A DNA stretch of 50,255 nucleotides from a phage, in sequence record PV636259.1. The stretch is one strand, 5' to 3'. A model generated the notes under the pieces. It was not told the DNA's origin and did no database searches. It saw only the letters and a program-made list of their open reading frames with translations. The position numbers were made by a program, and so were the translations under genes. This document shows, piece by piece, positions 4,499 through 49,875 of the stretch; positions within the stretch are counted from its first letter, which is position 1, and each line of letters opens with the position of its first letter.

Positions 4499-4519
4499 GT
4501 TTTAACAAAAAGTGCTATT
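4499..4519 (-). promoter_or_regulatory. Operator/promoter motif copy (minus orientation; GAATAGCACTTTTTGTTAAAAC) overlapping the stop of 4502..5206
   Basis: Full-consensus motif read as reverse complement; followed by CATAAT and the conserved leader. Confidence 0.55.
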
Positions 4520-5490: not shown

Positions 5491-5893
5491 CGATTACACT
5501 TTAACTTGTCACGATTGTAATATTTGTCTAGAATCGCACTTGTGACAAAATTACGCACTGTGACGCCCCACAATAGACATATGGATATATGTATATATAT
5601 AATATATATAGTGTTTTTTTATTTATATATATAGATAATTATATTGTAATAGTTGTGTATAGCCGTCTTACATTGTCTAGCGTACTGTTGGCATATTTCT
5701 ATCTGCATGTTTATATATACAGTACTTTTTTGAGAGTCATATATTTCTATGTGTACTCTAGACAGCTAGACAAATGTTACACAGCTTAAAATTGGCTCGC
5801 AGGCATTGACGGCCCTGCATTGCGCTGTCACAATGGCAATTGTTGACATGTTATGACACCATTTACACATCAATAGACAAATGAGGATGGATT

Positions 5894-6415: not shown

Positions 6416-6682
6416 ATGAGTATGAGCAAGATTAAGCATGACGCCCTGAAAGGTATCTTGATGCGACTAAACCCAGGCGAAGCATTCCAGCTTAACCCCG
6501 AGACATTCGGGTTCGTCGGCTTCTATAGACTTGGCCTACAGATGAGTTCGCCAGCCGATGAGCTGGTCCGGTATGTGCGAAAGCAGTTCGGCGTCGAGAT
6601 GATTAGTCTCGGAAAGGTGCAAGGCATCCAGACATTCATCTTTAAGCCAAATGAGATTCGTTGCTTCACGCTGATGAAATAG
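6416..6682 (+). CDS. Hypothetical protein (88 aa)
   Basis: Track ORF; its stop TAG is the first three bases of a motif copy. Confidence 0.55.
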   Translation: MSMSKIKHDALKGILMRLNPGEAFQLNPETFGFVGFYRLGLQMSSPADELVRYVRKQFGVEMISLGKVQGIQTFIFKPNEIRCFTLMK

Positions 6683-6698
6683 CACTTTTTGTTAAAAC
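6680..6698 (+). promoter_or_regulatory. Operator/promoter motif copy (TAGCACTTTTTGTTAAAAC) + hairpin + TATTAT + CATCGACAC leader
   Basis: Read directly; the stop codon of 6416..6682 is embedded in the motif. Confidence 0.6.
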
Positions 6699-6754
6699 CC
6701 GACCGAGCGGATCGGGTATTATCTTCTCATCGACACGATACAGAGGAAGCGAAG

Positions 6755-6951: not shown

Positions 6952-7419
6952 ATGGCGACAATTACCGTATTCCTGGCTAAAGATGAGATTGATGGCGAAA
7001 TGTCATTCTTCGCGTTTGAGCACAAAACCGGATCGCACTGGCACATGTACAGTCACTACACGGTTATTGATATCAACTCATACCGCGCAGGCTCACTTAC
7101 TGAAAAGCTGGGTTGCTTCATTGGAGCTATCAAGGCGAACAATGGCTGCGATTGTGAAGATGAGCAAGAGCGTCGCATGTGCGATATGATTAACCCGGTC
7201 TATCTTGAGTCTTTCGATCTTGATTCTGATGTGACCATTAAGGTGAGAAAGTCGGGTGAGTTGTTGCCAGGGATGCGTGTGCTGACTGGTTACTCGGGCC
7301 GTAAGGTGTGGCGCACTGTATCCAAGATTCGCCAGCGTTCGGCAACATGCTATAGCGTATTCTTTAATGATGGCTGGAATGAGGTTGCTGGCAGTAACGT
7401 GAAGTATCTTACCAAATAG
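6952..7419 (+). CDS. Hypothetical protein (155 aa)
   Basis: Track ORF; stop TAG embedded in the next motif. Confidence 0.55.
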   Translation: MATITVFLAKDEIDGEMSFFAFEHKTGSHWHMYSHYTVIDINSYRAGSLTEKLGCFIGAIKANNGCDCEDEQERRMCDMINPVYLESFDLDSDVTIKVRKSGELLPGMRVLTGYSGRKVWRTVSKIRQRSATCYSVFFNDGWNEVAGSNVKYLTK

Positions 7420-7435
7420 CACGAATTGTTAAAAC
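7417..7435 (+). promoter_or_regulatory. Operator/promoter motif copy (TAGCACGAATTGTTAAAAC) + TGCTATAGT extended -10 + CCATCGAAACG leader
   Basis: Read directly. Confidence 0.6.
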
Positions 7436-7493
7436 AGGATCGTGGTATCTTGCTATAGTTACCCCATCGAAACGCTTCTTGGCAAACCCAAAA

Positions 7494-7600
7494 GAAGGAA
7501 GCGGCAAACGTAGAACGGAGCCGCGAAAACCTCGAAGCAAAATTGACCTGGAAAAACCCATCAGGAAGGAAGCGGCAAACGTAGACCGGAGTCGCGAAAC
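7494..7600 (+). repeat. Two tandem copies of a ~36-bp element GAAGGAAGCGGCAAACGTAGA(A/C)CGGAG(C/T)CGCGAAAAC (7494..7530 and 7565..7600) in a 220-bp untranslated leader
   Basis: Read directly; each copy can fold GCGGC...GCCGC/GTCGC and carries an AGGAAG Shine-Dalgarno-like sequence with no ORF. Confidence 0.6.
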
Positions 7601-7638
7601 CCCAGGTTAAAAATTACACACCAATCAGAGGATTCACC

Positions 7639-7869
7639 ATGTCAATCATCAAGAACCAACAAGCCATCGACTCAACCAGCCACAACTGCTTTGCTATTTT
7701 CATCACTCGCGACAACAAGCGATTTGCTGTCAGGGCTGTACCGGGTGGATACAAAACCTATATGGAAAATAACGGAAAATGGGTATGCTGCGACAACCTG
7801 GCCAACTTCCTGGTATGGAACGCAGACCTGCAAGGATTCGACGATATCAGCACTTTAATTGAGGAATAA
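7639..7869 (+). CDS. Hypothetical protein (76 aa)
   Basis: Track ORF; preceded by ACACCAATCAGAGGA initiation element. Confidence 0.55.
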   Translation: MSIIKNQQAIDSTSHNCFAIFITRDNKRFAVRAVPGGYKTYMENNGKWVCCDNLANFLVWNADLQGFDDISTLIEE

Positions 7870-7875
7870 ATAATC

Positions 7876-8103
7876 ATGCCACGTTACAGCAACCTAACCA
7901 AACTAATCCGCGTCAACGGGCACATGATCCCGTCTAAATCTACTCACTGCGCGAAAGGCGCAAAGCACGGATTATATTTCAAGTGGCGCGGTCAATGGAA
8001 CTTCACGGCGGTGAGCAATTTTTACATGCGCGTTCCTGGTGACGATCCGCAATCGGTAGTAGAAAACTCAATCGGCGACAACAAGATCGAGGTGCTAAAA
8101 TGA
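7876..8103 (+). CDS. Hypothetical protein (75 aa)
   Basis: Track ORF. Confidence 0.5.
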   Translation: MPRYSNLTKLIRVNGHMIPSKSTHCAKGAKHGLYFKWRGQWNFTAVSNFYMRVPGDDPQSVVENSIGDNKIEVLK

Positions 8104-8206
8104 ACTTTAATACAGTAGCGCTATGGTCTGCCGTCTGGTTCTTCTGCATGGGTCACGTTATGGTCGGCATCGTTGTAATGCTTCTCCTGTGTGCGGGGGC
8201 GTTCGA

Positions 8207-8380
8207 ATGATGCGTATATTTATTTGCATGATGGCGTCGGTCGCCCTGGCTATCCTGGTAGTGTCCGGCTGTGGCGAGGTCAAAGAGCGATGCCATGAAA
8301 CCGGGAACCAGGTTACTACATTCGTGATGGTTGGCAATGTTTTACTACCAATCACATCAAATGAAATCACTTGCGAATAG
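8207..8380 (+). CDS. Small putative lipoprotein (57 aa; signal peptide with VSGC lipobox)
   Basis: MMRIFICMMASVALAILVVSGCGEV...; start set to the ATG after GGGGGCG. Stop TAG embedded in the next motif. Confidence 0.45.
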   Translation: MMRIFICMMASVALAILVVSGCGEVKERCHETGNQVTTFVMVGNVLLPITSNEITCE

Positions 8381-8396
8381 CACTTTTTGTTAAAAC
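8378..8396 (+). promoter_or_regulatory. Operator/promoter motif copy (TAGCACTTTTTGTTAAAAC) + hairpin enclosing GATATAGT + CATCGACAACG leader
   Basis: Read directly. Confidence 0.6.
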
Positions 8397-8451
8397 GCGA
8401 TCATGTGGTTGCGATATAGTAACCACATCGACAACGAACGAGGACGAGAAC

Positions 8452-8940
8452 ATGAAAATTAAATTACTTTGCACTGGCGGTTACAAAGGCTTTACTCGCG
8501 ACCTAGAAGCCGATCCTATTATCGTTGACGCCGTGAAGTGCGATGATAGCATTGGCGGCTACAGAGTCAAGGTCGATGACCTGGTTAAAGCTGGCGTGTA
8601 CGATCTTGATTACGGCCTATCGGTTAGTCCGGCATTTGGCCCGGCTGACTTCAACGAGAAGGACGGAACGATGTTCTTTTTTGAATGGGAAGTCCAGGCA
8701 AACATCAAGCCGCGCAAGGTTCGACTTCTCAACAATGGCGGGTATCCTATGCGCCCTGGTTATGAGAATCGCACGTTCCCGGTTATTGTTGACTTTGAAG
8801 AAATCACTAACAACTTGGTATACGTTAGCCATGAGCACCTGCGAGCCGTTGGATTCGTTGGCGGTATGCATAAAGAAGCACTATGCTTCGTTCGCGAGGA
8901 AATGCACGGTTACTATTCTGAGTGTGAGTTAGTTTACTAA
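8452..8940 (+). CDS. Hypothetical protein (162 aa)
   Basis: Track ORF 8371..8940 trimmed to the ATG after GAGGACGAG. Confidence 0.55.
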   Translation: MKIKLLCTGGYKGFTRDLEADPIIVDAVKCDDSIGGYRVKVDDLVKAGVYDLDYGLSVSPAFGPADFNEKDGTMFFFEWEVQANIKPRKVRLLNNGGYPMRPGYENRTFPVIVDFEEITNNLVYVSHEHLRAVGFVGGMHKEALCFVREEMHGYYSECELVY

Positions 8941-9518: not shown

Positions 9519-9667
9519 TGGCTGCATGGGTATTGATTATCTTGATGAGCACCGGGCCGGATCACGTATACATGGAAAGTCAGCAAGCATGTAACAAGGC
9601 TCGGGAAGTAATTGCAGAAAACAAGCCGTTCGGATATGAAGTAAAAACAATGTGCGTTAAAAGATAG
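9518..9667 (+). CDS. Possible small membrane protein (49 aa)
   Basis: Hand-found ORF MAAWVLIILMSTGPDHVYMES... with ATG overlapping the upstream stop (TAATG); its stop TAG starts the next motif. Below track cutoff. Confidence 0.35.
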   Translation: MAAWVLIILMSTGPDHVYMESQQACNKAREVIAENKPFGYEVKTMCVKR

Positions 9668-9683
9668 CACGAATTGCTAAACC
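9665..9683 (+). promoter_or_regulatory. Operator/promoter motif copy (TAGCACGAATTGCTAAACC); hairpin GGCCA...TGGCC encloses TGTTATAGT
   Basis: Read directly. Confidence 0.55.
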
Positions 9684-9774
9684 TTCCGCAAGGCCATTTG
9701 TTATAGTGGCCTTATTGAAGCACGGCAACCAACCAATCAGGCTGAATGCAGGATAATTTAATGAGGTTTTATCT

Positions 9775-10214: not shown

Positions 10215-10485
10215 ATTAAAAATCGCCCCGGTACATTTCATTGGAGTAATGAACGGAACAAAAACGGCAGAGTTCCGCATCAATGACCGCAACTTCCAGC
10301 CTGGCGATATCCTGGAGCTATGCGAGTTCGATCGTGACGAGTTTACCGGGTGGGAAGTTCACGCCAGGGTGTCCGATGTTACAGACGTGACGCCATACAT
10401 CAATCGCGGGTATGACGATCAGGAATGCGACTTCACGCAATACGTGATGTTATCAATCAAACCTTACAGGAAGGTTAGACCATGA
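10198..10485 (+). CDS. ASCH/PUA-like small protein (DUF3850-like), 95 aa
   Basis: N-terminal KLKIAPVHFIGVMNGTKTAEFRINDRNFQPGDIL resembles ASCH-type PUA-fold domains as I recall them; start set to the ATG after GAGGTGAATGAAG. Similarity not verified by search. Confidence 0.45.
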   Translation: MSKTHKLKIAPVHFIGVMNGTKTAEFRINDRNFQPGDILELCEFDRDEFTGWEVHARVSDVTDVTPYINRGYDDQECDFTQYVMLSIKPYRKVRP

Positions 10486-11120
10486 AATTTGAATGCGTAT
10501 CAAGTGACGGAACGGGCTTTAAGTGGGGAAAAATCTACGAGGGCGTTCTCGTCAATGACGACAGCTTCGTTGTCGTGGATGAGCACGGTAGCAATGTGAA
10601 CATCATCCGTCGTCACGAATACCAAGAAATTTTCCTGCCGTATGGCGGTAGTTCAAAATATATCTTCCATCGAATCGTGGATGGTGTTAAATTTAACGAC
10701 GTAATCGAAGCAATCAACCAACTGCATAATAAAGAGGTAAAATTTATGAAATTTGAATGTATCAGTGATAACACCAAAAAATTTACTGTTGGCAAAATCT
10801 ACGACGTTCCTACTGAGCACGCAAAGCACACTGTAGCGCTTACTGACGACACGGGCCGTCACCGCATTGCTACCGTAACGCATAATGGCGAAGGTCTGCG
10901 ATGGAATAGCGGCGGCACTAAGTTTGCAACGTTCGGCAAGAAGCGTAAGCGCACTTTCTGCGTTAAAGGCAAGGTTGCAGCAAACAAGATCCACAACGTC
11001 AAGCCGTCGGAAGTTGACAGCAAGCCAGCGACGAAGTTTGAAGAGAAAGCAGATTTGTCTGGTCTGGCTATCGCTCTTGTTCTCCTGGTCGCTTCTATTT
11101 CGCTGATGTTCATCATGTAA
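10482..11120 (+). CDS. Membrane-anchored protein with two tandem paralogous domains (MKFEC(V/I)S...GKIY...) and a C-terminal transmembrane helix, 212 aa
   Basis: Internal duplication visible directly (residues 1-50 versus about 86-135); C-terminal LSGLAIALVLLVASISLMFIM hydrophobic segment. Confidence 0.55.
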   Translation: MKFECVSSDGTGFKWGKIYEGVLVNDDSFVVVDEHGSNVNIIRRHEYQEIFLPYGGSSKYIFHRIVDGVKFNDVIEAINQLHNKEVKFMKFECISDNTKKFTVGKIYDVPTEHAKHTVALTDDTGRHRIATVTHNGEGLRWNSGGTKFATFGKKRKRTFCVKGKVAANKIHNVKPSEVDSKPATKFEEKADLSGLAIALVLLVASISLMFIM

Positions 11121-11126
11121 TGTTAA

Positions 11127-11162
11127 CGGGGAATCGGCTCTGAACGGTTCCCCTTTCTTTTG
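11127..11162 (+). terminator. Rho-independent terminator (GGGGAA...TTCCCC + T-run)
   Basis: Hairpin followed by TTTCTTTTGG directly after the 10482..11120 stop. Confidence 0.6.
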
Positions 11163-11268: not shown

Positions 11269-11487
11269 ATGGCTACTATCATGACAGCGGAAGATGCAGC
11301 GCGTGAAGCAGTGGAAGGGATGCGCCCAAATACCTCCAGAATCGCACACTACTACAATTTTGACGTGTCGGCAGTGCAGCTGGTCCATGAAATTTTAAGG
11401 CTCCCACAAGTTGATTCAGTGCGCGTGGTGACGTGCTTAAAAAATTATTTTTGCATCACTATTAAAATGAATAGCACGAATTGCTAA
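11269..11487 (+). CDS. Hypothetical protein (72 aa); last five codons (N-S-T-N-C-stop) are encoded by the motif itself
   Basis: Track ORF; ...AATAGCACGAATTGCTAA read in frame. Confidence 0.5.
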   Translation: MATIMTAEDAAREAVEGMRPNTSRIAHYYNFDVSAVQLVHEILRLPQVDSVRVVTCLKNYFCITIKMNSTNC

Positions 11488-11490
11488 AAC
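11472..11490 (+). promoter_or_regulatory. Operator/promoter motif copy (TAGCACGAATTGCTAAAAC); hairpin GGGGAAT...ATTCCCC encloses GCTATGAT
   Basis: Read directly. Confidence 0.6.
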
Positions 11491-11544
11491 CTATCAAGGG
11501 GAATGCGCTATGATTCCCCTACACCAAAAAACGAGGGAACACTC

Positions 11545-11991
11545 ATGAAACATTTGATTTGCATTGACACACCTAACAATGAATACACCCTATACGAAAT
11601 TGGAATGTTCAAAGGCCACTACATGACAGCAAGCATTTATGATGCGCGTCGAGGCGATGGCGATCTGATTATTACGTCAAAAGACGTTAATCCGTACATT
11701 ATGCAGAATCTTGGCAATAATGAATATATGGCTTACGGCTGCAACGCGGTGTACAAACATGTCAAGATCCGTAAGCGTATTGTTCGAGCGTTTAAGAAAA
11801 TCGCCATGAAGCACTGGAAGATGAGCAAGAAGGAGGCTGGGCGCTGGGCGCGTAACGTTGCTGATTCATACTTCTATCGTAACGGTGAGTCGTGCTGCTT
11901 CCTGATCGATGAAATGATGGAAAATTATAGCGGCACATTCTGCCAAAGTGATTTTGACGCTTGGGCTGACTACGAGGTAGATTGCTGGTAA
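11545..11991 (+). CDS. Hypothetical protein (148 aa)
   Basis: Track ORF 11503..11991 trimmed to the ATG after GAGGGAACAC. Confidence 0.55.
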   Translation: MKHLICIDTPNNEYTLYEIGMFKGHYMTASIYDARRGDGDLIITSKDVNPYIMQNLGNNEYMAYGCNAVYKHVKIRKRIVRAFKKIAMKHWKMSKKEAGRWARNVADSYFYRNGESCCFLIDEMMENYSGTFCQSDFDAWADYEVDCW

Positions 11992-12010
11992 TAGCACTAA
12001 TTGCTAAAAC
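11992..12010 (+). promoter_or_regulatory. Operator/promoter motif copy (TAGCACTAATTGCTAAAAC); hairpin AAGGGCA...TGCCCTT encloses GGTAGAAT
   Basis: Read directly; abuts the TAA stop of 11545..11991. Confidence 0.6.
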
Positions 12011-12073
12011 TTGCTCAAGGGCATTTGGTAGAATGCCCTTCGTTGAGTTAAGCAACCAATCAGAGGAATCACT

Positions 12074-12918: not shown

Positions 12919-13491
12919 ATGAAAACAGCTATCATTTTAAACGGCGCTCCTGGAGCAGGCAAGGACACTATCGGATGCATCCTGGCTGACACTTACGATC
13001 ATGTAGCTTTGCGCAGCTTCAAAGCACCAATGTTTGAGATTGCTCGGGCAATCCTGGGTGAGGCTAACTACGAGTATTTCATGTTCTTGTATGAGGATCG
13101 TCGTTACAAAGAAGAGCCAGCGTCAATCCTGAACGGTAAAAGCCCGCGCCAGTTTATGATCTGGATTAGCGAGGAAGTAATCAAGCCGCAGTTCGGAAAT
13201 CGCTTCTTCGGTATGCGAGCGGAAAGCAAGGTCAAAGAGTCATATTCTCTGTCAGTATTTACTGATGGTGGATTCAAAGATGAGGTATTGCAGATGATTG
13301 AAGGTGATATCCAGGTCAAGCTATGCCGAATCCACCGCAAGGGCGGCAACTTTGACAACGACAGTCGTGATTATATTTACCTGGAAGATATGATCGGGGT
13401 TAATGGTTATCAGGAGTGTGATTTCTTCTCTGTCGAAGGTCATCCAGAAATTACCGCTCAGCACATAGCCGCTACGTTCATCAACAAATAG
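12919..13491 (+). CDS. P-loop kinase (190 aa): polynucleotide-kinase-like or dNMP-kinase-like
   Basis: N-terminal Walker A LNGAPGAGKDT. GAPGAGK resembles polynucleotide kinase P-loops and SGKDT resembles phage dNMP kinases; adjacent to the HAD phosphatase. Confidence 0.55.
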   Translation: MKTAIILNGAPGAGKDTIGCILADTYDHVALRSFKAPMFEIARAILGEANYEYFMFLYEDRRYKEEPASILNGKSPRQFMIWISEEVIKPQFGNRFFGMRAESKVKESYSLSVFTDGGFKDEVLQMIEGDIQVKLCRIHRKGGNFDNDSRDYIYLEDMIGVNGYQECDFFSVEGHPEITAQHIAATFINK

Positions 13492-13507
13492 CACGAATTG
13501 CTAAAAC
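13489..13507 (+). promoter_or_regulatory. Operator/promoter motif copy (TAGCACGAATTGCTAAAAC) + TGATATAGT extended -10 + CTCATCGACAAC leader
   Basis: Read directly; TAG stop of the kinase gene embedded. Confidence 0.6.
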
Positions 13508-13563
13508 GTCGGTGGGGTGATTTGATATAGTTACCTCATCGACAACAAAGAGAGAAAATCGAA

Positions 13564-32000: not shown

Positions 32001-35000
32001 ATGATTCAAAAAGTGATAAGCGGATCTAAAGGTGGGTCACAGAAGCCTCATAATCCAGTTGAGATGGAGGACAATCTAATCTCAATCAACAAAATCAAGA
32101 TCCTGTTAGCTGTATCTGATGGTGAAATTGACGAAACATTCAGCCTAAAGCAGTTGATGTTTAACTCAGTCCCGGTGCAAAACGAGGATGGCTCATTTAA
32201 CTTCGAGGGAGTAAAGGCTGAGTTCAGGCCGGGAACTCAGACGCAGGAATACATCAAGGGCATGGAAGATAGTTCCAGTGAGGTAACTGTAAATCGTGAG
32301 GTTACTACCGATAACCCATACACGATCTCAGTGACCAATAAAACACTATCGGCAATACGCATAAAAATGTTTATGCCTCGCGGCGTACGAATTGAAAGTA
32401 ACGGTGACAAAAACGGCGTTCGCGTTGAGTACGAGGTGCAACAAGCTGTTGATGGTGGCTCGTTTGAGACGGTGCTCACCGATGTAATCGAAGGCAAAAC
32501 AATGTCAGGTTACGATCGAAGCCGTCGCGTAAACCTTCCGAACTTCAACAATCAGGTAATATTCAGAGTTGTTCGAAAGACTCCAGACTCTAACGACTCT
32601 AACGTTGTTGATGCGATCCAGGTAAAGAGCTATGCCGAGGTGATTGATGCCAAATTCCGTTACCCTCTGACAGGTCTTCTTTTCGTCGAGTTCGACTCGA
32701 AGATGTTCCCAAACCAGTTACCTACGATCTCAATTCGTAAGCGCTGGAAGATTGTAAACGTTCCATCAAACTACGATCCGGAATCACGAACCTACAACGG
32801 CAATTGGGATGGGACTTTCAAGAAGGCGTGGACTAACAACCCTGCATGGGTTCTATACGATCTGATGATTAATCAGCGCTACGGGCTGGATCAGAAGGAG
32901 CTTGGAATCTCCGTCGATAAATGGGCGCTCTACGAGGCCGCGCAATATTGCGATCAGATGGTTCCTGATGGGAAGGGCGGGACGGAGCCTCGATACCTTT
33001 GCGACGTGATAATTCAGTCACAGACTGATGCGTACAAGGTGATTCGAGATATTTGCTCAATATTCCGTGGTATGAGCTTCTGGAATGGTGAAAGCATCTC
33101 GGTAATCATCGACAGACCGCGTGAGCCTGCGTACATCTTCACTAACGACAACGTTGTTAATGGTGACTTCTCCTATACGTTCGCAAGCGAAAAGAGTATG
33201 TACACGACGTGTAACGTGATGTTTGACGACGAACAAAACATGTATCAACAGGACGTTGAGCCAGTATTCGATCGTGAGGCGACTCTGCGGTTCGGTAATA
33301 ACGTAACCAGCATTACAGCGATAGGTTGCACGCGTCGAAGCGAGGCTAACCGACGAGGGCGATGGATTCTGAAGACCAACCTTCGCAGCACTACGGTAAA
33401 CTTCGCGACCGGACTGGAAGGGATGATCCCGACGATCGGGGATGTTGTGGCAATAGCTGATAACTTCTGGTCAAGTAACTTGACGATGAACCTATCAGGG
33501 CGCTTGCTCGAAGTGTCTGGAAGCCAGATTTTCTTGCCGTTCCGAGTGGATGCGCGCGCAGGTGACTTTATTATCGTAAATAAGCCCGATGGCAAGCCCG
33601 TGAAGCGCACAATCTCAAGTGTTAGTGCGGATGGTAAGACTATAGAGATTAACATAGGCTTTGGCTTTCCTGTGAAGCCTAACACGGTATTCGCTATCGA
33701 CCGCACAGACATTGCGTTACAGCAGTACGTCGTGACAAAAATCGATAAGGGTGATGACGATGAGGAATTTACCTACAAGATTACTGCGGTTGAATACGAT
33801 CCTAACAAGTACGATGAGATTGATTACGGTGTAAACATCGACGACCGACCGACAAGTATCGTTGAACCAGACCAGATCCCTAGACCGGAAAACGTGCAAG
33901 TGTCATCTGAGTCACGAATCGTCCAGGGGATGAGCGTAGAAACTATGATTGTTAGCTGGGATAAAGTTCCGTACGCAGTTTTCTATGATGTGCAGTGGAG
34001 AAAGGATAATGGCAACTGGCAAAACGTTCCTCAGACGGCAAACAAAGAGGTTTACGTTGAGGGTATTTACGCTGGCAACTATCAGGTTCGCGTTCGCTCC
34101 GTCGCTGGTTCCGGTACGACTTCAGGATGGTCAAATATCGTAGCTGCTACGCTGACTGGTAAACAAGGTGAGCCTGGTCGACCGATTAACCTTACAGCTA
34201 CGGATGATGTTGTTTTTGGTATCCGTACAAAATGGGGGTTCTCTGATGGTTCTGGAGATACGGCATATACGGAGTTGCAACAGTCACCGGATGGAACAGT
34301 GGATAACGCAAGTTTGCTTTCTTTGATTCCGTACCCGCAGCATGAGTATTATCACTCACCGATGCCGGGTGGGAATATTGTGTGGTATCGGGTAAGGACG
34401 GTTGACAGGATCGGTAACGTTTCTCAGTGGACTGATTTCGTAAGGGGCATGGCATCGACCAACGTAGACGATATCATCGGAGAGATTTCTGTTGATATCG
34501 AAAACTCTCCGGGCTACGAGTGGCTTGTTGATAACGCAACCGACAACGCGGCGCAGAACGCAGCTAACGCAGAGGCAGCAATAGAAAACGCTCTCGCCAA
34601 TGACAAAGACGCGATCTACATGAAGAAGGAGAACGGAAAACGAAAAGCTGAGTACACGAAATCACTGAAACTTATTGCTGATGAGACGCAGGCACGAGTG
34701 ACGGCGATCGAGCAATTGAAGGCGAGTTTTGGCGATCAGATTAGCGCTAGCAACAGCGAATTGCGTGAAGTTATCGCAACTGAGACTGGAGCGCTATCGC
34801 GTGAAATTGACCAACTCAGGGCAGAGATTGGTGATGATATCCAGGCAAGTTTGACTGATATCAGAGAGGCTATAGCAAACGAGACTGAGGCTAGAACGCA
34901 AGCTGACTTGTCGTTAAGCGCGAGGCTTGGGAATAATGAGGCGGCACTTTCTCAAAAACTTGATTCGTGGAGCAATGCGGATTCGACTGGTGCAATGTAC

Positions 35001-35450
35001 GGAGTCAAGCTCGGTCTGAAGTATAACGGACAAGAATACAGTGCAGGCATGGCTATGTCTCTGATTGGTTCCGGAGCTGCGGTTAAGGCGCAGATTTTGT
35101 TTGAGGCATCACGATTTGCCATCATGACTGGAATGAATGGTCAGACTCAGTACCCATTCGTTGTTGAGAATGGCCAGGTCATTCTAAGTAGCGCGATCAT
35201 CAAGGATGGATTTATTACTAACGCCATGATTGGTAACGCGATTCAGTCTAACAATTGGGATGGAAATCAAGGGTGGCATATTAACAAGAATGGTGCAGCT
35301 TACTTCATGAACGCAACCGTAAGGGGTGCTTTGTATGCAAATAACGGATCGTTTGCATTCAACGGGACAAACAATACGGTTCAGATAAACAATAACGGGA
35401 TCACGGTTAACCTACCTAACGGGGGCCGAGTGGTTGTTGGTGTCTGGTAA
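32001..35450 (+). CDS. Central tail fiber / host specificity protein (lambda J-like, 1149 aa)
   Basis: Size and position after I; internal fibronectin-III-like segments; C-terminal coiled-coil and beta-rich tip. Confidence 0.8.
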   Translation: MIQKVISGSKGGSQKPHNPVEMEDNLISINKIKILLAVSDGEIDETFSLKQLMFNSVPVQNEDGSFNFEGVKAEFRPGTQTQEYIKGMEDSSSEVTVNREVTTDNPYTISVTNKTLSAIRIKMFMPRGVRIESNGDKNGVRVEYEVQQAVDGGSFETVLTDVIEGKTMSGYDRSRRVNLPNFNNQVIFRVVRKTPDSNDSNVVDAIQVKSYAEVIDAKFRYPLTGLLFVEFDSKMFPNQLPTISIRKRWKIVNVPSNYDPESRTYNGNWDGTFKKAWTNNPAWVLYDLMINQRYGLDQKELGISVDKWALYEAAQYCDQMVPDGKGGTEPRYLCDVIIQSQTDAYKVIRDICSIFRGMSFWNGESISVIIDRPREPAYIFTNDNVVNGDFSYTFASEKSMYTTCNVMFDDEQNMYQQDVEPVFDREATLRFGNNVTSITAIGCTRRSEANRRGRWILKTNLRSTTVNFATGLEGMIPTIGDVVAIADNFWSSNLTMNLSGRLLEVSGSQIFLPFRVDARAGDFIIVNKPDGKPVKRTISSVSADGKTIEINIGFGFPVKPNTVFAIDRTDIALQQYVVTKIDKGDDDEEFTYKITAVEYDPNKYDEIDYGVNIDDRPTSIVEPDQIPRPENVQVSSESRIVQGMSVETMIVSWDKVPYAVFYDVQWRKDNGNWQNVPQTANKEVYVEGIYAGNYQVRVRSVAGSGTTSGWSNIVAATLTGKQGEPGRPINLTATDDVVFGIRTKWGFSDGSGDTAYTELQQSPDGTVDNASLLSLIPYPQHEYYHSPMPGGNIVWYRVRTVDRIGNVSQWTDFVRGMASTNVDDIIGEISVDIENSPGYEWLVDNATDNAAQNAANAEAAIENALANDKDAIYMKKENGKRKAEYTKSLKLIADETQARVTAIEQLKASFGDQISASNSELREVIATETGALSREIDQLRAEIGDDIQASLTDIREAIANETEARTQADLSLSARLGNNEAALSQKLDSWSNADSTGAMYGVKLGLKYNGQEYSAGMAMSLIGSGAAVKAQILFEASRFAIMTGMNGQTQYPFVVENGQVILSSAIIKDGFITNAMIGNAIQSNNWDGNQGWHINKNGAAYFMNATVRGALYANNGSFAFNGTNNTVQINNNGITVNLPNGGRVVVGVW

Positions 35451-35453
35451 CAG

Positions 35454-35482
35454 AAAGGGGCCGATTGGCCCCTTTTTTTAAT
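35454..35482. terminator. Bidirectional rho-independent terminator (GGGGCCGATTGGCCCC flanked by A- and T-runs)
   Basis: Sits between convergent J (plus) and receptor-binding (minus) genes. Confidence 0.7.
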
Positions 35483-36443
35483 ACATGTTTGGAGTGAAAG
35501 GAATTGGCATTGAAATGTTTATATTGAAGGGAAATTGAGCGCCGCTCTGAGTAGAATAGTTACCCACCCTTGTTCCGGGTGCGCTTCTCACGTTACCGCC
35601 GCTCATGCAAACTCCCTTGTATCGAATGTTATTATATCCACCCGTAACTCTGCATATCGTACCTGTTCTCAGTATTGGGAAAAATCCACCGCACCACTGC
35701 CAACCATCATTTATCGCCATAGTCCCGCCAAGAACGAATGGGCGTCTAACGCTTGAGAAAACGATCTGACCAGCAGGGTTACTCATAGTTATTCCTAGCC
35801 CAGGAGGTGGTGGAGTGTTATTAAATATTACGAGTTGCACGTATACGCTAGCGCCAACGTCATCAATCCCGTTATAGTTTGCATCCCTGCACCATATTGT
35901 ATTGCCGTCAGATTCAAGTGTTACGTTTGGATTATCCCACATACCGAAAGGAACGCCCTGTACTGGCAACTGAGCCTGACCGTTAACCTGAATCCCCCCA
36001 ACAAATGCAGCGCTCATCAATCTGGCGTTATTCGGTATAGCTGCGAAGTTCGTTGAATCGTTAACAAGTATCCCCTGATTTCCAGCTTGAGCGGGGAGGA
36101 TTTCGTAGCAGTTTCCATAAAATCTCATCCTCCTTCCACCGTGCCCGTTAAAATTACCTACCGTTATTCGTCCGGTTGAATCATTTACCTTCTGAAAACT
36201 AGTCAAATAATACACCTCCGGGATGTAATCCATATCGTCTATGTAGATAGCCTGAGATGGAAGGCAAAAAGCAGTAGACCCTGGACTCATTTGCAAACCA
36301 AAATCAAACACCGATCCAGATGAATCAACCCCGTCAGCCTGTATGGGTCCGCACCATGACGGTGCGCGAAGACCCGAAGTTATCTCCATTGCCGGGCGAC
36401 CGTCGTTTAGGTTTATATATATTCCTTGTCCCATAATTACCAC
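35478..36443 (-). CDS. Putative receptor-binding protein (321 aa)
   Basis: Gly/Asn-rich beta-type composition; encoded with a Cor-like lipoprotein gene, opposite to the tail operon. Positional inference. Confidence 0.5.
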   Translation of the reverse strand: MVIMGQGIYINLNDGRPAMEITSGLRAPSWCGPIQADGVDSSGSVFDFGLQMSPGSTAFCLPSQAIYIDDMDYIPEVYYLTSFQKVNDSTGRITVGNFNGHGGRRMRFYGNCYEILPAQAGNQGILVNDSTNFAAIPNNARLMSAAFVGGIQVNGQAQLPVQGVPFGMWDNPNVTLESDGNTIWCRDANYNGIDDVGASVYVQLVIFNNTPPPPGLGITMSNPAGQIVFSSVRRPFVLGGTMAINDGWQWCGGFFPILRTGTICRVTGGYNNIRYKGVCMSGGNVRSAPGTRVGNYSTQSGAQFPFNINISMPIPFTPNMY

Positions 36444-36667
36444 TCTTTAGTTTTGATTGACACCTTGCCGCTAAAGTTGCCCTGATCGTCGTCGGATGAC
36501 AGACCCTTGAATCGCATATCGATTTCGCCAGCAGGCACTTTCTGACCGTCAACGAATCGCATCATGCAAGATCCGTAAGCGTAAGTAACACAGTCGCCAT
36601 TCTTAAGATTCTGAGCGCAACCAGTCAGGATGAACGCGGCGGCGATAATGGTGATTAACTTTTTCAT
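36437..36667 (-). CDS. cor: Cor-like superinfection-exclusion outer-membrane lipoprotein (76 aa)
   Basis: MKKLITIIAAAFILTGCAQN: signal peptide with LTGC lipobox; small size; location beside the receptor-binding gene. Confidence 0.6.
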   Translation of the reverse strand: MKKLITIIAAAFILTGCAQNLKNGDCVTYAYGSCMMRFVDGQKVPAGEIDMRFKGLSSDDDQGNFSGKVSIKTKEW

Positions 36668-48986: not shown

Positions 48987-49474
48987 TGAGCTTAAAAAAT
49001 AACGTTATAGGCGCATCGATCGGGGCCGCTTTGACGTTGACACCTACACTACTGGAACGAATCGAAGGGATAGAATACGAGGTGTATTACGATATAGCCG
49101 GAGTCCCTACAGTATGCAGCGGAATAACCGGGCCGGACGTCATACCTGGCAAGAAGTACACTAAGCGAGAATGCGATGCATTGCTGATAAAACATATCGG
49201 AGTCGCTCAGAGATACGTTGACAAAAAGGTGAATGTTGATATTCCGGTAACGATGCGCGCGTCACTGTACAGTTTCACTTTCAACGTCGGTACTGGCGCG
49301 TTCGGATCTTCTACAATGCTTAAGCTAATAAATCAGAGTAAGCACAAGGAAGCGTGCAATCAGTTATGGCGATGGGTATACTACTACAACCCAAAAACCA
49401 AAAAGCGCGAAGTGTCTAGAGGACTAAAGAACCGACGCGCTGAAGAATACGCGTATTGCGTTAAGGAATTATGA
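48986..49474 (+). CDS. Endolysin (phage lysozyme, glycoside hydrolase family 24-like), 162 aa
   Basis: N-terminal E...D...T catalytic-type pattern ([26 protein letters not shown]) and overall T4/P22-lysozyme-like layout. Confidence 0.7.
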
Positions 49475-49875
49475 TGAAACTGAAGAAAACGTGCATTGCG
49501 ATTGCAGTGGCTGTTGGCGTTATTTCCCTATCCGGTTGTTCGACGGCATCTGCCCTGAGCGGTTTAATCGGATCTAAACCGGAAGTTACAGCACAAATCG
49601 GAGAGGAGAACACAAAGCAATTAGCAGGAGTAACCGCAAAATCCGAAGATAAGCGAGATGTTAAAGTTGAGAAGTCCAATGTAGGAAAGATTGACTCTTC
49701 CTTGAAGAAGTCAATTGAAGTGTCAACCATTAAGGCTAACACGGTTAACGCTGAAAGCATCACAGTAACAAAACCGGAAAACTGGTATGATGCTATCGTT
49801 GGCTGGATTCTCGTTTTTATCGGTCTATTGCTGGTTTATTTTTCACTTCGTAAGGACGAAAAAAAGGAGGCTTAG
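49471..49875 (+). CDS. Unimolecular spanin (134 aa)
   Basis: N-terminal lipoprotein signal (LSGC lipobox) plus C-terminal transmembrane helix ([20 protein letters not shown]), directly after the endolysin. Confidence 0.65.

What the first reader, a model, noticed from the sequence alone, without database searches (positions are those of the whole stretch)
8207..8380. Second small lipoprotein encoded in the early arm
Besides the Cor-like lipoprotein at 36437..36667, a 57-aa ORF in the rightward early region has a signal peptide and VSGC lipobox. Small phage lipoproteins often block receptors or channels to exclude superinfecting phage, so this is a candidate second exclusion or host-envelope-modifying factor. 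The start is ambiguous (track start 8123 versus ATG 8207).
Basis: inference. Interest (0 to 1): 0.4.

Follow-up and report, generated by a model that had tools for sequence, protein, structure and literature searches.

The report
Small early lipoprotein of T1-like phage
A real, conserved but dispensable 57-residue gene of a T1-like coliphage (the counterpart of phage T1 orf72) very probably makes a tiny lipid-anchored periplasmic beta-hairpin of unknown role; it is unrelated to the known receptor-blocking lipoproteins Cor and Llp, so the exclusion idea stays an untested guess.

Summary
ORF 8207..8380 is a real gene under purifying selection (dN/dS about 0.16). It is the syntenic ortholog of phage T1 orf72 and matches phrog_8628, which has no assigned function. 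Its product has a canonical lipoprotein signal peptide: R3, a 16-residue hydrophobic core, lipobox VSGC and Cys22.

The start ambiguity is resolved in favour of 8207. Positions 8123-8206 evolve in the frame of the upstream 36-aa membrane peptide gene, and the extension carries stops in relatives.

This is the third, not the second, lipobox protein of the phage, after Cor-like (36437..36667) and the spanin (49471..49875).

The 36-residue mature part is predicted to be one beta-hairpin with a hydrophobic tip. Two conserved cysteines (C29, C56) lie at its base.

No sequence or fold relation to Cor or Llp was found, and the gene is not at the receptor-binding locus. Close relatives replace the lipobox with a transmembrane anchor. 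The only remote relatives lie on actinophage-like contigs. Natural deletion variants exist.

Best guess, at low confidence: an early, membrane-tethered periplasmic factor that blocks a post-adsorption entry step, rather than a Cor-like receptor plug. UniProt already labels one homolog "Lipoprotein". Interest is modest.

The parts
8207..8380 (+). Gene for the 57-aa prolipoprotein (here called Lpp57), stop codon included. It is the ortholog of phage T1 orf72 (CPTT1_006, AAP49928.1).
   Evidence: ORF. T1 synteny and annotation. phrog_8628 at E = 1.1e-28. Found in 56 phage records, all Tunavirus of Escherichia or Shigella. dN/dS 0.16.
8195..8199 (+). G-run resembling a Shine-Dalgarno site, 7 nt upstream of ATG 8207.
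   Evidence: Read directly. T1's record annotates a ribosome binding site at the equivalent position.
8207..8269 (+). Signal peptide, residues 1-21: n-region MMR and hydrophobic core I4-V19.
   Evidence: Rule check. AF2 predicts a helix over residues 2-19.
8261..8272 (+). Lipobox V19-S20-G21-C22. Cys22 (8270-8272) is the predicted lipidated first residue of the mature peptide.
   Evidence: S20, G21 and C22 are nearly invariant.
8291..8293 (+). Cys29, conserved; proposed partner of Cys56 in a disulfide.
   Evidence: Conserved in at least 90% of sequences. The disulfide itself is inferred.
8297..8374 (+). Predicted beta-hairpin, residues 31-56: strands 31-42 and 45-56 with the turn at G43-N44. 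The tip F39-I49 is all hydrophobic. Cys56 is encoded at 8372-8374.
   Evidence: AF2 (block pLDDT 80-91 in the hairpin). The core 35-57 is almost invariant and has the lowest dN of the gene (0.028; dN/dS 0.11).
8100..8210 (+). Upstream gene for a 36-aa single-pass membrane peptide (TM36, T1 orf73). It is translationally coupled to Lpp57 by an ATGA overlap.
   Evidence: phrog_25570 at E = 5e-27. dN/dS 0.06.
7876..8103 (+). DUF7274 gene (T1 orf74). Its stop overlaps the TM36 start.
   Evidence: Pfam PF23939 at E = 1.8e-37.
7639..7869 (+). 76-aa gene (T1 orf75), first gene of the four-gene cassette.
7415..7463 (+). Repeated intergenic element (AATAGCAC-N3-TTGYTAAAAC ... TATAGT) upstream of the cassette. 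It looks like a promoter or regulatory site.
8376..8424 (+). Another copy of the same repeated element. It begins at the last sense codon of Lpp57 and marks the downstream end of the cassette.

Best explanation
ORF 8207..8380 is a genuine accessory gene of a T1-like phage (genus Tunavirus). It is transcribed in a four-gene cassette and translationally coupled to a 36-aa membrane peptide gene.

Its 57-aa product is exported by Sec, lipidated on Cys22 and cut by signal peptidase II (inferred from sequence). That leaves a 36-residue lipopeptide held within a few residues of the periplasmic face of a membrane. With Gly at +2 this would be the outer membrane by default, but the inner membrane is not excluded.

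The mature part is a single beta-hairpin with a polar base and a fully hydrophobic tip. The base is probably closed by a Cys29-Cys56 disulfide.

Most likely function (inference, about 30%): an infection-expressed exclusion or protection factor that acts in the periplasm, close to a membrane, on a step after receptor binding. An example would be membrane insertion of the channel or tape-measure apparatus of an incoming siphophage. It would not plug FhuA as Cor does.

Shown: the gene is real, its start is 8207, the lipobox is conserved, the gene is dispensable, and it has no detectable relation to Cor or Llp.

Inferred: lipidation, the disulfide, localisation, timing of expression, and function.
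For: Gene reality and start: codon-position pattern, stops in the alternative extension and dN/dS 0.16; the same CDS is annotated in T1 and others.

Lipoprotein: the rule is met. It is kept in 19 of 20 T1-group clusters and also in the remote relatives P0025 and P0026, whose signal peptides are otherwise unrelated. UniRef names the Shfl1 homolog 'Lipoprotein'.

Fold: AF2 predicts a helix plus a hairpin. Mean pLDDT is 76.4, and 80-91 in the hairpin with the wider alignment. C29 and C56 are conserved.

Membrane-proximal action not specific to the outer membrane:
- P0022 and P0027 (52-55% identical) have a transmembrane anchor and no lipobox. P0022 sits at the same position in a T1-like genome.
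- P0029 and P0030 are also transmembrane-anchored.
- L011 has Asp at +2.
- P0025 and P0026 lie on actinophage-like contigs.

Accessory nature: frameshifted or truncated copies exist (P0020, P0021, P0023, L005/L019, L006). A deletion-fusion variant, P0028, occurs in two genome-length metagenome contigs.

The phage already has a Cor-like gene at the tail locus, and Drexlerviridae place receptor-specific exclusion genes there (PMC8594841).
Against: There are no experimental data for any family member, and no paper found mentions this gene.

Lipidation, the disulfide and localisation are predictions. Gly at +2 would normally send the protein to the outer membrane, which fits a Cor-like mode as well.

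The lipobox is damaged in some isolates: C22F in L016, G21V in L012, Glu at -3 in P0019.

The links to P0025 and P0026 are marginal: E about 8e-4 library-wide, and 26-32 bits on the mature domain alone. The link to the Streptomyces-phage lipoproteins is only transitive, because the direct profile-profile comparison aligns the signal peptide alone.

Nothing ties the protein specifically to phage entry. Other envelope targets fit equally well.
Confidence: 0.3

Rival explanations
1. Cor/Llp-like receptor blocker. [quoted passage not shown] This is the first reader's idea.
For: Gly, Ser or Val at +2 in most members predicts Lol-dependent sorting to the outer membrane (the +2 rule is established knowledge).

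The architecture resembles Llp and Cor: an N-terminal lipid, a small beta-rich domain, and two cysteines near the two ends of the mature peptide. Llp has a Cys11-Cys58 disulphide constraining its termini, and this is conserved in Cor (PMC9586334).
Against: No homology to Cor, Llp or the Cor PHROG, and no fold match.

The gene is not beside the gpJ/RBP locus, where Drexlerviridae keep cognate exclusion genes. The phage already has a Cor-like gene there.

Close relatives are transmembrane-anchored, which means inner membrane. There is an Asp +2 variant. The remote relatives are in actinophage-like contigs.

FhuA-using Drexlerviridae outside Tunavirus lack the gene: tblastn found it only in Tunavirus records.
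Confidence: 0.15
2. An envelope-directed host-takeover or anti-defence factor unrelated to superinfection. The tethered hairpin, possibly together with TM36, would bind or perturb a host periplasmic or membrane component, such as the cell-wall or lipoprotein machinery, a stress sensor or a membrane-based defence. Alternatively its hydrophobic tip would insert into the bilayer and alter membrane properties during infection.
For: The gene lies among small genes of unknown function between promoter-like repeats. It is tightly coupled to a strongly constrained 36-aa membrane peptide (dN/dS 0.06). The hairpin tip is hydrophobic on both faces (read from the sequence with the AF2 register). Family members with either lipid or transmembrane tethers occur in phages of very different hosts.
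Against: No match to any PADLOC model or Pfam/NCBIfam family. The TM36 pairing is not conserved: it is absent next to P0022, and the membrane peptide upstream of P0026 shows no sequence similarity to TM36. No target can be named.
Confidence: 0.25
3. Not a lipoprotein. The N-terminus is an uncleaved signal-anchor or an SPase-I-cleaved signal peptide, and the SGC motif is incidental.
For: The lipobox rule is matched by chance about 1.9 times per shuffled window. Relatives P0022, P0027, P0029 and P0030 function, presumably, with plain transmembrane anchors. L016 has C22F and L012 has G21V.
Against: S20, G21 and C22 are nearly invariant in the T1 group, and 19 of 20 clusters pass the strict rule. 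P0025, P0026 and the Streptomyces-phage proteins keep a lipobox although their signal peptides share no sequence with T1's.
Confidence: 0.1
4. Outer-membrane spanin component or other lysis protein.
For: It is a small lipoprotein with periplasmic cysteines, as in Rz1-type o-spanins (established knowledge).
Against: The phage has its own Rz-like spanin directly after the endolysin at 49471..49875. Lpp57 is about 9 kb from the lysis cassette through the window ends if the genome map is joined end to end, as other records' coordinates suggest, or 41 kb along the window as given. It has no i-spanin partner, contains only one proline, and has no PHROG lysis match.
Confidence: 0.02

Closest known systems
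Phage T1 orf72 (CPTT1_006, AAP49928.1) and PHROG phrog_8628
   Same: The protein is 86% identical, has the same 57-aa length, and has the same neighbours (orf75-orf74-orf73-orf72). The profile match to phrog_8628 covers the whole length.
   Different: Nothing substantive differs; it is the ortholog. T1 and this window both lack the extra 64-aa gene that most relatives carry just downstream. The family has no assigned function.
Llp (phage T5) and Cor (T1, phi80, N15) superinfection-exclusion lipoproteins
   Same: These are small phage-encoded lipoproteins made during infection. The mature peptide has two cysteines near its ends (Llp Cys11-Cys58; PMC9586334). The fold is small and beta-rich.
   Different: No sequence, profile or fold similarity was found. 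Lpp57 is about half the size (36 against about 60 mature residues). It is not encoded beside the receptor-binding gene. Its relatives can use a transmembrane anchor instead of lipid.
Ltp-type lipoproteins of Streptococcus phages (TP-J34)
   Same: A phage lipoprotein tethered to the outer face of the cytoplasmic membrane that blocks DNA injection rather than adsorption (PMC3952083 abstract; mechanism from established knowledge). This is the proposed mode of action here.
   Different: There is no homology. Ltp is much larger, with repeat domains, is expressed from a prophage, and belongs to Gram-positive hosts. The resemblance is in mode of action only and is untested.
Small predicted lipoproteins of Streptomyces phages (Rowa gp47, Camvirus such as Vanseggelen and Endor2)
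   Same: They are 59-67 aa with a lipobox. They show the pattern Cys - 4 to 5 residues - Cys - x-G-H ... turn ... Cys followed by an acidic tail, and they sit among early genes. The bridging sequences P0025 and P0026 score with both profiles on the mature domain alone (21-32 bits).
   Different: The direct profile-profile comparison with the T1 family aligns only the signal peptide. The hairpin sequence is polar (NGKTTT) rather than hydrophobic. Homology is therefore only transitive and tentative.

Membership tests
Bacterial lipoprotein precursors (SPase II substrates; PROSITE PS51257-type rule) | Positively charged n-region (K/R within the first 7 residues) | tested here: met
   R3 is present and is conserved in at least 90% of family members.
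Bacterial lipoprotein precursors (SPase II substrates; PROSITE PS51257-type rule) | Uncharged hydrophobic h-region followed by lipobox [LVI][ASTVI][GAS]-C, with the Cys at position 15-35 | tested here: met
   I4-V19, then V-S-G-C22. 19 of 20 T1-group clusters pass the strict rule.
Bacterial lipoprotein precursors (SPase II substrates; PROSITE PS51257-type rule) | Actual diacylglyceryl modification and globomycin-sensitive cleavage | not testable with these tools
   This needs labelling and inhibitor experiments. SignalP and LipoP were not available.
Cor / Llp superinfection-exclusion lipoproteins | Sequence or profile homology to Cor (phrog_1119, phrog_4281) or Llp | tested here: not met
   Only phrog_8628 is hit. 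hhalign against the window's Cor aligns 12 signal-peptide columns, probability 3%. A PDB sequence search gives no Llp hit. Foldseek against PDB gives nothing at E <= 0.001.
Cor / Llp superinfection-exclusion lipoproteins | Encoded next to the receptor-binding protein / gpJ tail-tip locus | tested here: not met
   The gene is at 8.2 kb. gpJ-like is at 32001..35450 and Cor-like at 36437..36667. The rule for Drexlerviridae comes from PMC8594841.
Cor / Llp superinfection-exclusion lipoproteins | Intramolecular disulfide tying the ends of the mature peptide | tested here: inconclusive
   C29 and C56 are conserved and lie at the base of the predicted hairpin. Bond formation was not shown.
Cor / Llp superinfection-exclusion lipoproteins | Binds FhuA and blocks FhuA-dependent phages | not testable with these tools
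   No complex prediction or experiment was possible.
Spanins (Rz1-type o-spanin or T1 gp11-type u-spanin) | Located in the lysis cassette, with an i-spanin partner or a C-terminal transmembrane domain | tested here: not met
   The spanin is at 49471..49875, next to the endolysin. Lpp57 has no C-terminal transmembrane domain and no lysis neighbours.
phrog_8628 / T1 orf72 orthologous group | Full-length profile match and conserved synteny | tested here: met
   E = 1.1e-28 over residues 1-57. Same gene order as T1 and other Tunavirus.

The most novel reading that the evidence does not exclude
Lpp57 would be the coliphage representative of an undescribed, sparsely distributed family of phage mini-proteins. 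In this family a roughly 30-residue, cysteine-closed beta-hairpin (core motif TT[FYL][VI]MVG[NK]V[LM][LV]PI) is tethered to the extracytoplasmic membrane face by either a lipid or a transmembrane helix. The family would be shared between T1-like phages of enterobacteria and phages of actinobacteria. It would therefore act on something common to both envelopes, such as the membrane-crossing step of siphophage genome delivery or the bilayer itself, and so represent an exclusion or envelope-takeover mechanism distinct from receptor plugging.
Probability: 0.15. Interest if true: 0.6.

Novelty: new member of a known kind. Interest (0 to 1): 0.3.

Why it matters
T1-like phages are classic models and notorious laboratory contaminants, yet their block of small genes remains functionally blank. 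If this gene encodes a second, mechanistically different envelope-level protection factor, it would add to the few known ways in which virulent phages defend an infected cell. With only 36 mature residues it would be a very tractable peptide for structural and binding studies. As it stands, it is a well-supported prediction of a small lipoprotein with no known function. UniProt's automatic rule already flags one homolog as a lipoprotein.

Tried and rejected
- Pfam, NCBIfam and PADLOC scans of Lpp57 and its neighbours gave nothing for Lpp57. Its only listed matches were two far-below-cutoff NCBIfam hits: flagellin PRK08541 at E = 0.092 and the LptM signal-sequence model at E = 0.13.
- The PDB sequence search gave only insignificant archaellin and flagellin N-terminal matches.
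- Foldseek against BFVD and PDB gave no match at E <= 0.001, as expected for a helix plus a hairpin.
- The profile comparison with the window's Cor aligned the signal peptide only.
- The profile comparison of the T1 family with the Streptomyces-phage lipoprotein family also aligned the signal peptide only. That link is therefore only transitive, through P0025 and P0026.
- P0024, a 725-aa repetitive protein from the library-wide search, was judged spurious.
- A conserved 'membrane peptide + lipoprotein' two-gene module was considered and rejected. TM36 is absent beside P0022. The gene upstream of P0025 is a Cys-rich soluble ORF. The 41-aa membrane peptide upstream of P0026 has no similarity to TM36.
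- The scan of 185,579 species genomes found no relatives. The metagenome scan added only two T1-like contigs and the P0026 contig.
- A TonB-box-mimic idea for the strand TTFVMVG was considered. It was dropped because the nearest remote relatives are in actinophage-like contigs, whose hosts lack TonB.
- Literature searches found no study of this gene. The T1 genome paper (PMID 14972552) is not held.
- Rfam found nothing in the window. Folding of the 7464-7640 leader was unremarkable, z = -1.6.

Full report
**What the window is.** The region around the finding is 85-92% identical at the DNA level to Tunavirus genomes: T1, ADB-2, LeonhardEuler, Sfin-1 to Sfin-6, Shfl1 and others. The 50,255-base window has the size and gene layout of a complete T1-like (Drexlerviridae) genome. 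It carries a block of small rightward ORFs from about 5.9 to 15.9 kb, then terminase, portal and the structural genes, a gpJ-like gene at 32001..35450, and a lysis cassette near 49 kb.

**Checking the observation.** The ORF at 8207..8380 exists and encodes MMRIFICMMASVALAILVVSGCGEVKERCHETGNQVTTFVMVGNVLLPITSNEITCE. It is the syntenic ortholog of T1 orf72 (CPTT1_006, 174 nt, 'hypothetical protein'). It matches phrog_8628, which has no assigned function, over its whole length (E = 1.1e-28). It has no Pfam family.

I coded a PROSITE PS51257-type rule and the protein passes. R3 lies in the n-region, I4-V19 form an uncharged core, and the lipobox is V-S-G-C with the Cys at position 22.

The rule alone is weak evidence. 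Shuffled windows give about 1.9 ORFs that pass, and the real window has three obviously spurious hits in wrong frames of large genes. Conservation makes the case:
- 19 of 20 T1-group protein clusters pass the strict rule.
- S20, G21 and C22 are nearly invariant.
- Among 16 indel-free orthologous loci, variable columns fall 14/15/38 by codon position.
- Pairwise dN/dS is about 0.16.

So this is a real protein-coding gene with a conserved lipoprotein-type signal.

**The start codon.** The alternative ATG at 8123 can be discarded.
- Between 8123 and 8206, variable columns fall 8/3/19 by codon position in the frame of the upstream gene 8100..8210, against 19/8/3 in the extension frame.
- The extension has in-frame stops in L009 and L015 and starts with a non-ATG codon in T1.
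- ATG 8207 overlaps the stop of the upstream gene (ATGA) and follows a G-run at 8195-8199.
- Two clusters read MI.. at the first two codons, so the first ATG (8207), not 8210, is the conserved start.

**How many lipoproteins.** The same rule picks out three real genes in the window: this one, the Cor-like gene 36437..36667 on the minus strand (phrog_4281 and phrog_1119 'Cor superinfection exclusion protein'), and the Rz-like spanin 49471..49875 beside the endolysin. 'Second lipoprotein' should therefore read 'third'.

**Anatomy of the product.** AlphaFold2 with the T1-group alignment gave a helix over residues 2-19 and a hairpin over 29-42/45-56, with mean pLDDT 68.6. With a wider alignment it gave mean pLDDT 76.4, with strands 31-42 and 45-56 and block pLDDT of 80-91 in the hairpin.

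With that register, both faces of the distal half (F39-I49) are hydrophobic and the proximal half is polar. This is read directly from the sequence.

C29 and C56 are conserved and sit at the open end of the hairpin. A disulfide closing it is plausible in the periplasm but is inferred, not shown.

The segment 35-57 is almost invariant across the genus (dN 0.028). The linker 23-34 varies more.

The lipid-bearing Cys is separated from C29 by only six residues, so the hairpin is held close to the membrane surface.

**Context.** The gene is the last of four tightly packed genes: 7639..7869, 7876..8103 (DUF7274), 8100..8210 (a 36-aa single-pass membrane peptide with dN/dS 0.06), and 8207..8380. The last three are joined by ATGA overlaps.

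The cassette is bracketed by copies of a repeated intergenic element, AATAGCAC-N3-TTGYTAAAAC ... TATAGT, at 7415-7463 and 8376-8424. The 16-nt core occurs 14 times in the window against 0.8 expected by chance.

Strong sigma-70-like sites lie at 5506-5603 and a terminator-like site at 11128-11153. 'Early' expression is inferred from position only; I found no expression data.

**Distribution.** tblastn finds the protein in 56 phage records, all Tunavirus of Escherichia or Shigella. The 5.8-billion-protein search returns only T1-group clusters. A library-wide HMM search of 1.84 billion representatives adds just two marginal hits, P0025 and P0026, at E about 8e-4. A second profile search adds P0027, P0029 and P0030. 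No relatives were found in 185,579 species genomes, and almost none in the metagenome scan.

**Informative variants.**
- P0022 (52% identity) and P0027 (55%) keep the hairpin and both cysteines but have no lipobox; the N-terminus is a plain transmembrane anchor. P0022 sits at the same place in a diverged T1-like contig, directly after DUF7274 and without TM36.
- P0029 and P0030 also carry the core motif TT[FL]IMVGKVMVP behind a transmembrane anchor, on phage-like contigs.
- L011 has Asp at +2, the canonical inner-membrane retention residue. L016 has C22F and L012 has G21V.
- Frameshifted or truncated copies occur (P0020, P0021, P0023, L005/L019, L006).
- P0028 is a deletion that fuses the first 37 residues to the C-terminal tail of the homolog of the 212-aa protein at 10482..11120. 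It occurs in two genome-length metagenome contigs. The gene is therefore dispensable.

**Remote relatives.**
- P0025 and P0026 have their own lipoboxes (VTGC, LAAC) and the motif T[YF]VM[AV]GKVMVPI...VC.
- On the mature domain alone they score 26-32 bits with the T1-family profile and 21-32 bits with a profile of small Streptomyces-phage lipoproteins such as Rowa gp47 and Camvirus.
- The two families do not match each other directly; hhalign aligns only the signal peptide.
- The genes flanking P0025 and P0026 match Mycobacterium, Gordonia and Streptomyces phage proteins, so these contigs are actinophage-like.
- I regard homology to P0025 and P0026 as probable but marginal, and the link to the Streptomyces family as tentative.

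[quoted passage not shown] Cor proteins share this and probably act similarly (PMC9586334). Lpp57 resembles them in outline: an N-terminal lipid, a small beta-rich domain and a cysteine near each end. Several points separate it from them:
- It is about half the size.
- It shows no sequence, profile or fold relation.
- It is not at the gpJ-adjacent locus, where Drexlerviridae keep receptor-binding proteins with their cognate exclusion proteins (PMC8594841). This phage has its Cor-like gene there.
- A recent analysis of a T1-like phage discusses the Cor cassette but not this gene (PMC13164509).

**Mechanism.** These features are firm: the gene is real, its product has a lipoprotein-type signal, and the mature part is a tiny tethered hairpin under strong constraint. 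The gene is accessory.

The existence of transmembrane-anchored close relatives, an Asp +2 variant and actinophage-associated remote relatives argues that the hairpin works next to a membrane surface in general. It argues against action on an outer-membrane protein such as FhuA.

I therefore rank the explanations as follows:
- Entry-step exclusion or protection acting in the periplasm: about 0.3.
- Another envelope-directed takeover or anti-defence role: about 0.25.
- A Cor-like receptor plug: about 0.15.
- 'Not actually lipidated': about 0.1.
- A lysis or spanin role: excluded by context.

None of these can be decided computationally with the tools at hand. The experiments that would decide are listed under next steps.

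**Novelty and interest.** The ORF has been annotated since the T1 genome record, and UniRef already names the Shfl1 homolog 'Lipoprotein'. What is added here:
- the resolved start codon;
- the evidence for purifying selection;
- the hairpin and cysteine architecture;
- the lipid versus transmembrane tether alternation;
- the marginal cross-phylum relatives;
- the evidence against a Cor-type identity.

It is best filed as a new, unrelated member of the general kind 'small phage-encoded lipoproteins', function unknown. Interest is modest (0.3).

Noticed in passing
window 6678-6726, 7415-7463, 8376-8424, 9663-9711, 11470-11518, 11990-12038, 13487-13535; core copies also at 4499, 5471, 22025, 25791, 42416 (minus strand) and 42888, 43119, 45397, 45788, 46420 (plus strand): There is a repeated intergenic element of about 50 nt: AATAGCAC-N3-TTG(T/C)TAAAAC, then a variable stretch that often holds a short inverted repeat, then TATAGT or a similar hexamer. 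The 16-nt core occurs 14 times against 0.8 expected by chance. In the copies inspected in detail (5.4-16 kb), the element lies between small-gene cassettes on the coding strand. The spacing from TTGYTA to TATAGT is about 22 nt, too long for a standard sigma-70 promoter, so the upstream block may bind something else.
   Followed up: partly
window 8376-8460, compared with L002 2262-2541, L003 1375-1654 and others: Most relatives carry an extra 192-nt gene (64 aa) right after the lipoprotein gene, flanked by two copies of the repeated element. This window and T1 lack it. That is consistent with cassette gain or loss by recombination between the repeats.
   Followed up: partly
window 8100-8210: A 36-aa single-pass membrane peptide gene (T1 orf73, phrog_25570) is under very strong purifying selection (dN/dS 0.06). 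ATGA overlaps couple it to both neighbours. Its function is unknown.
   Followed up: partly
L028 and L029 4001-4312 (protein P0028): Two genome-length (about 50 kb) metagenome contigs of T1-like phages carry a deletion. It fuses the first 37 residues of the lipoprotein to the C-terminal membrane tail of the homolog of the 212-aa protein at window 10482..11120, removing the genes in between.
   Followed up: partly
window 7494-7544 and 7565-7615: Two direct copies of a 51-nt sequence (82% identical) lie in the untranslated leader upstream of gene 7639..7869. Each contains a GCGGC...GCCGC inverted repeat. Folding is unremarkable (z = -1.6) and there is no Rfam match.
   Followed up: partly
L025 1438-1641, L026 1438-1617, L027 1438-1623: Streptomyces phages (Rowa gp47; Camvirus such as Vanseggelen, Conan and Endor2) encode a family of 59-67-aa predicted lipoproteins. 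They have a conserved pattern C-DDRP-C-x-GH ... NGKTTT ... VCD-YAEE, sit among early and DNA-metabolism genes, and are all annotated as hypothetical.
   Followed up: partly
window 49471-49875: The Rz-like spanin next to the endolysin also has a canonical lipobox (LSGC, Cys at residue 23 of the 49471 ORF, or 22 from ATG 49474). This gives the phage three predicted lipoproteins.
   Followed up: yes
window 35478-36443 (minus strand): A 321-aa gene directly downstream of, and overlapping, the Cor-like gene on the minus strand matches phrog_1265 'membrane protein' (moron / host-takeover category) at E = 1e-125. It is probably part of the Cor cassette described for KanT1 (PMC13164509).
   Followed up: no
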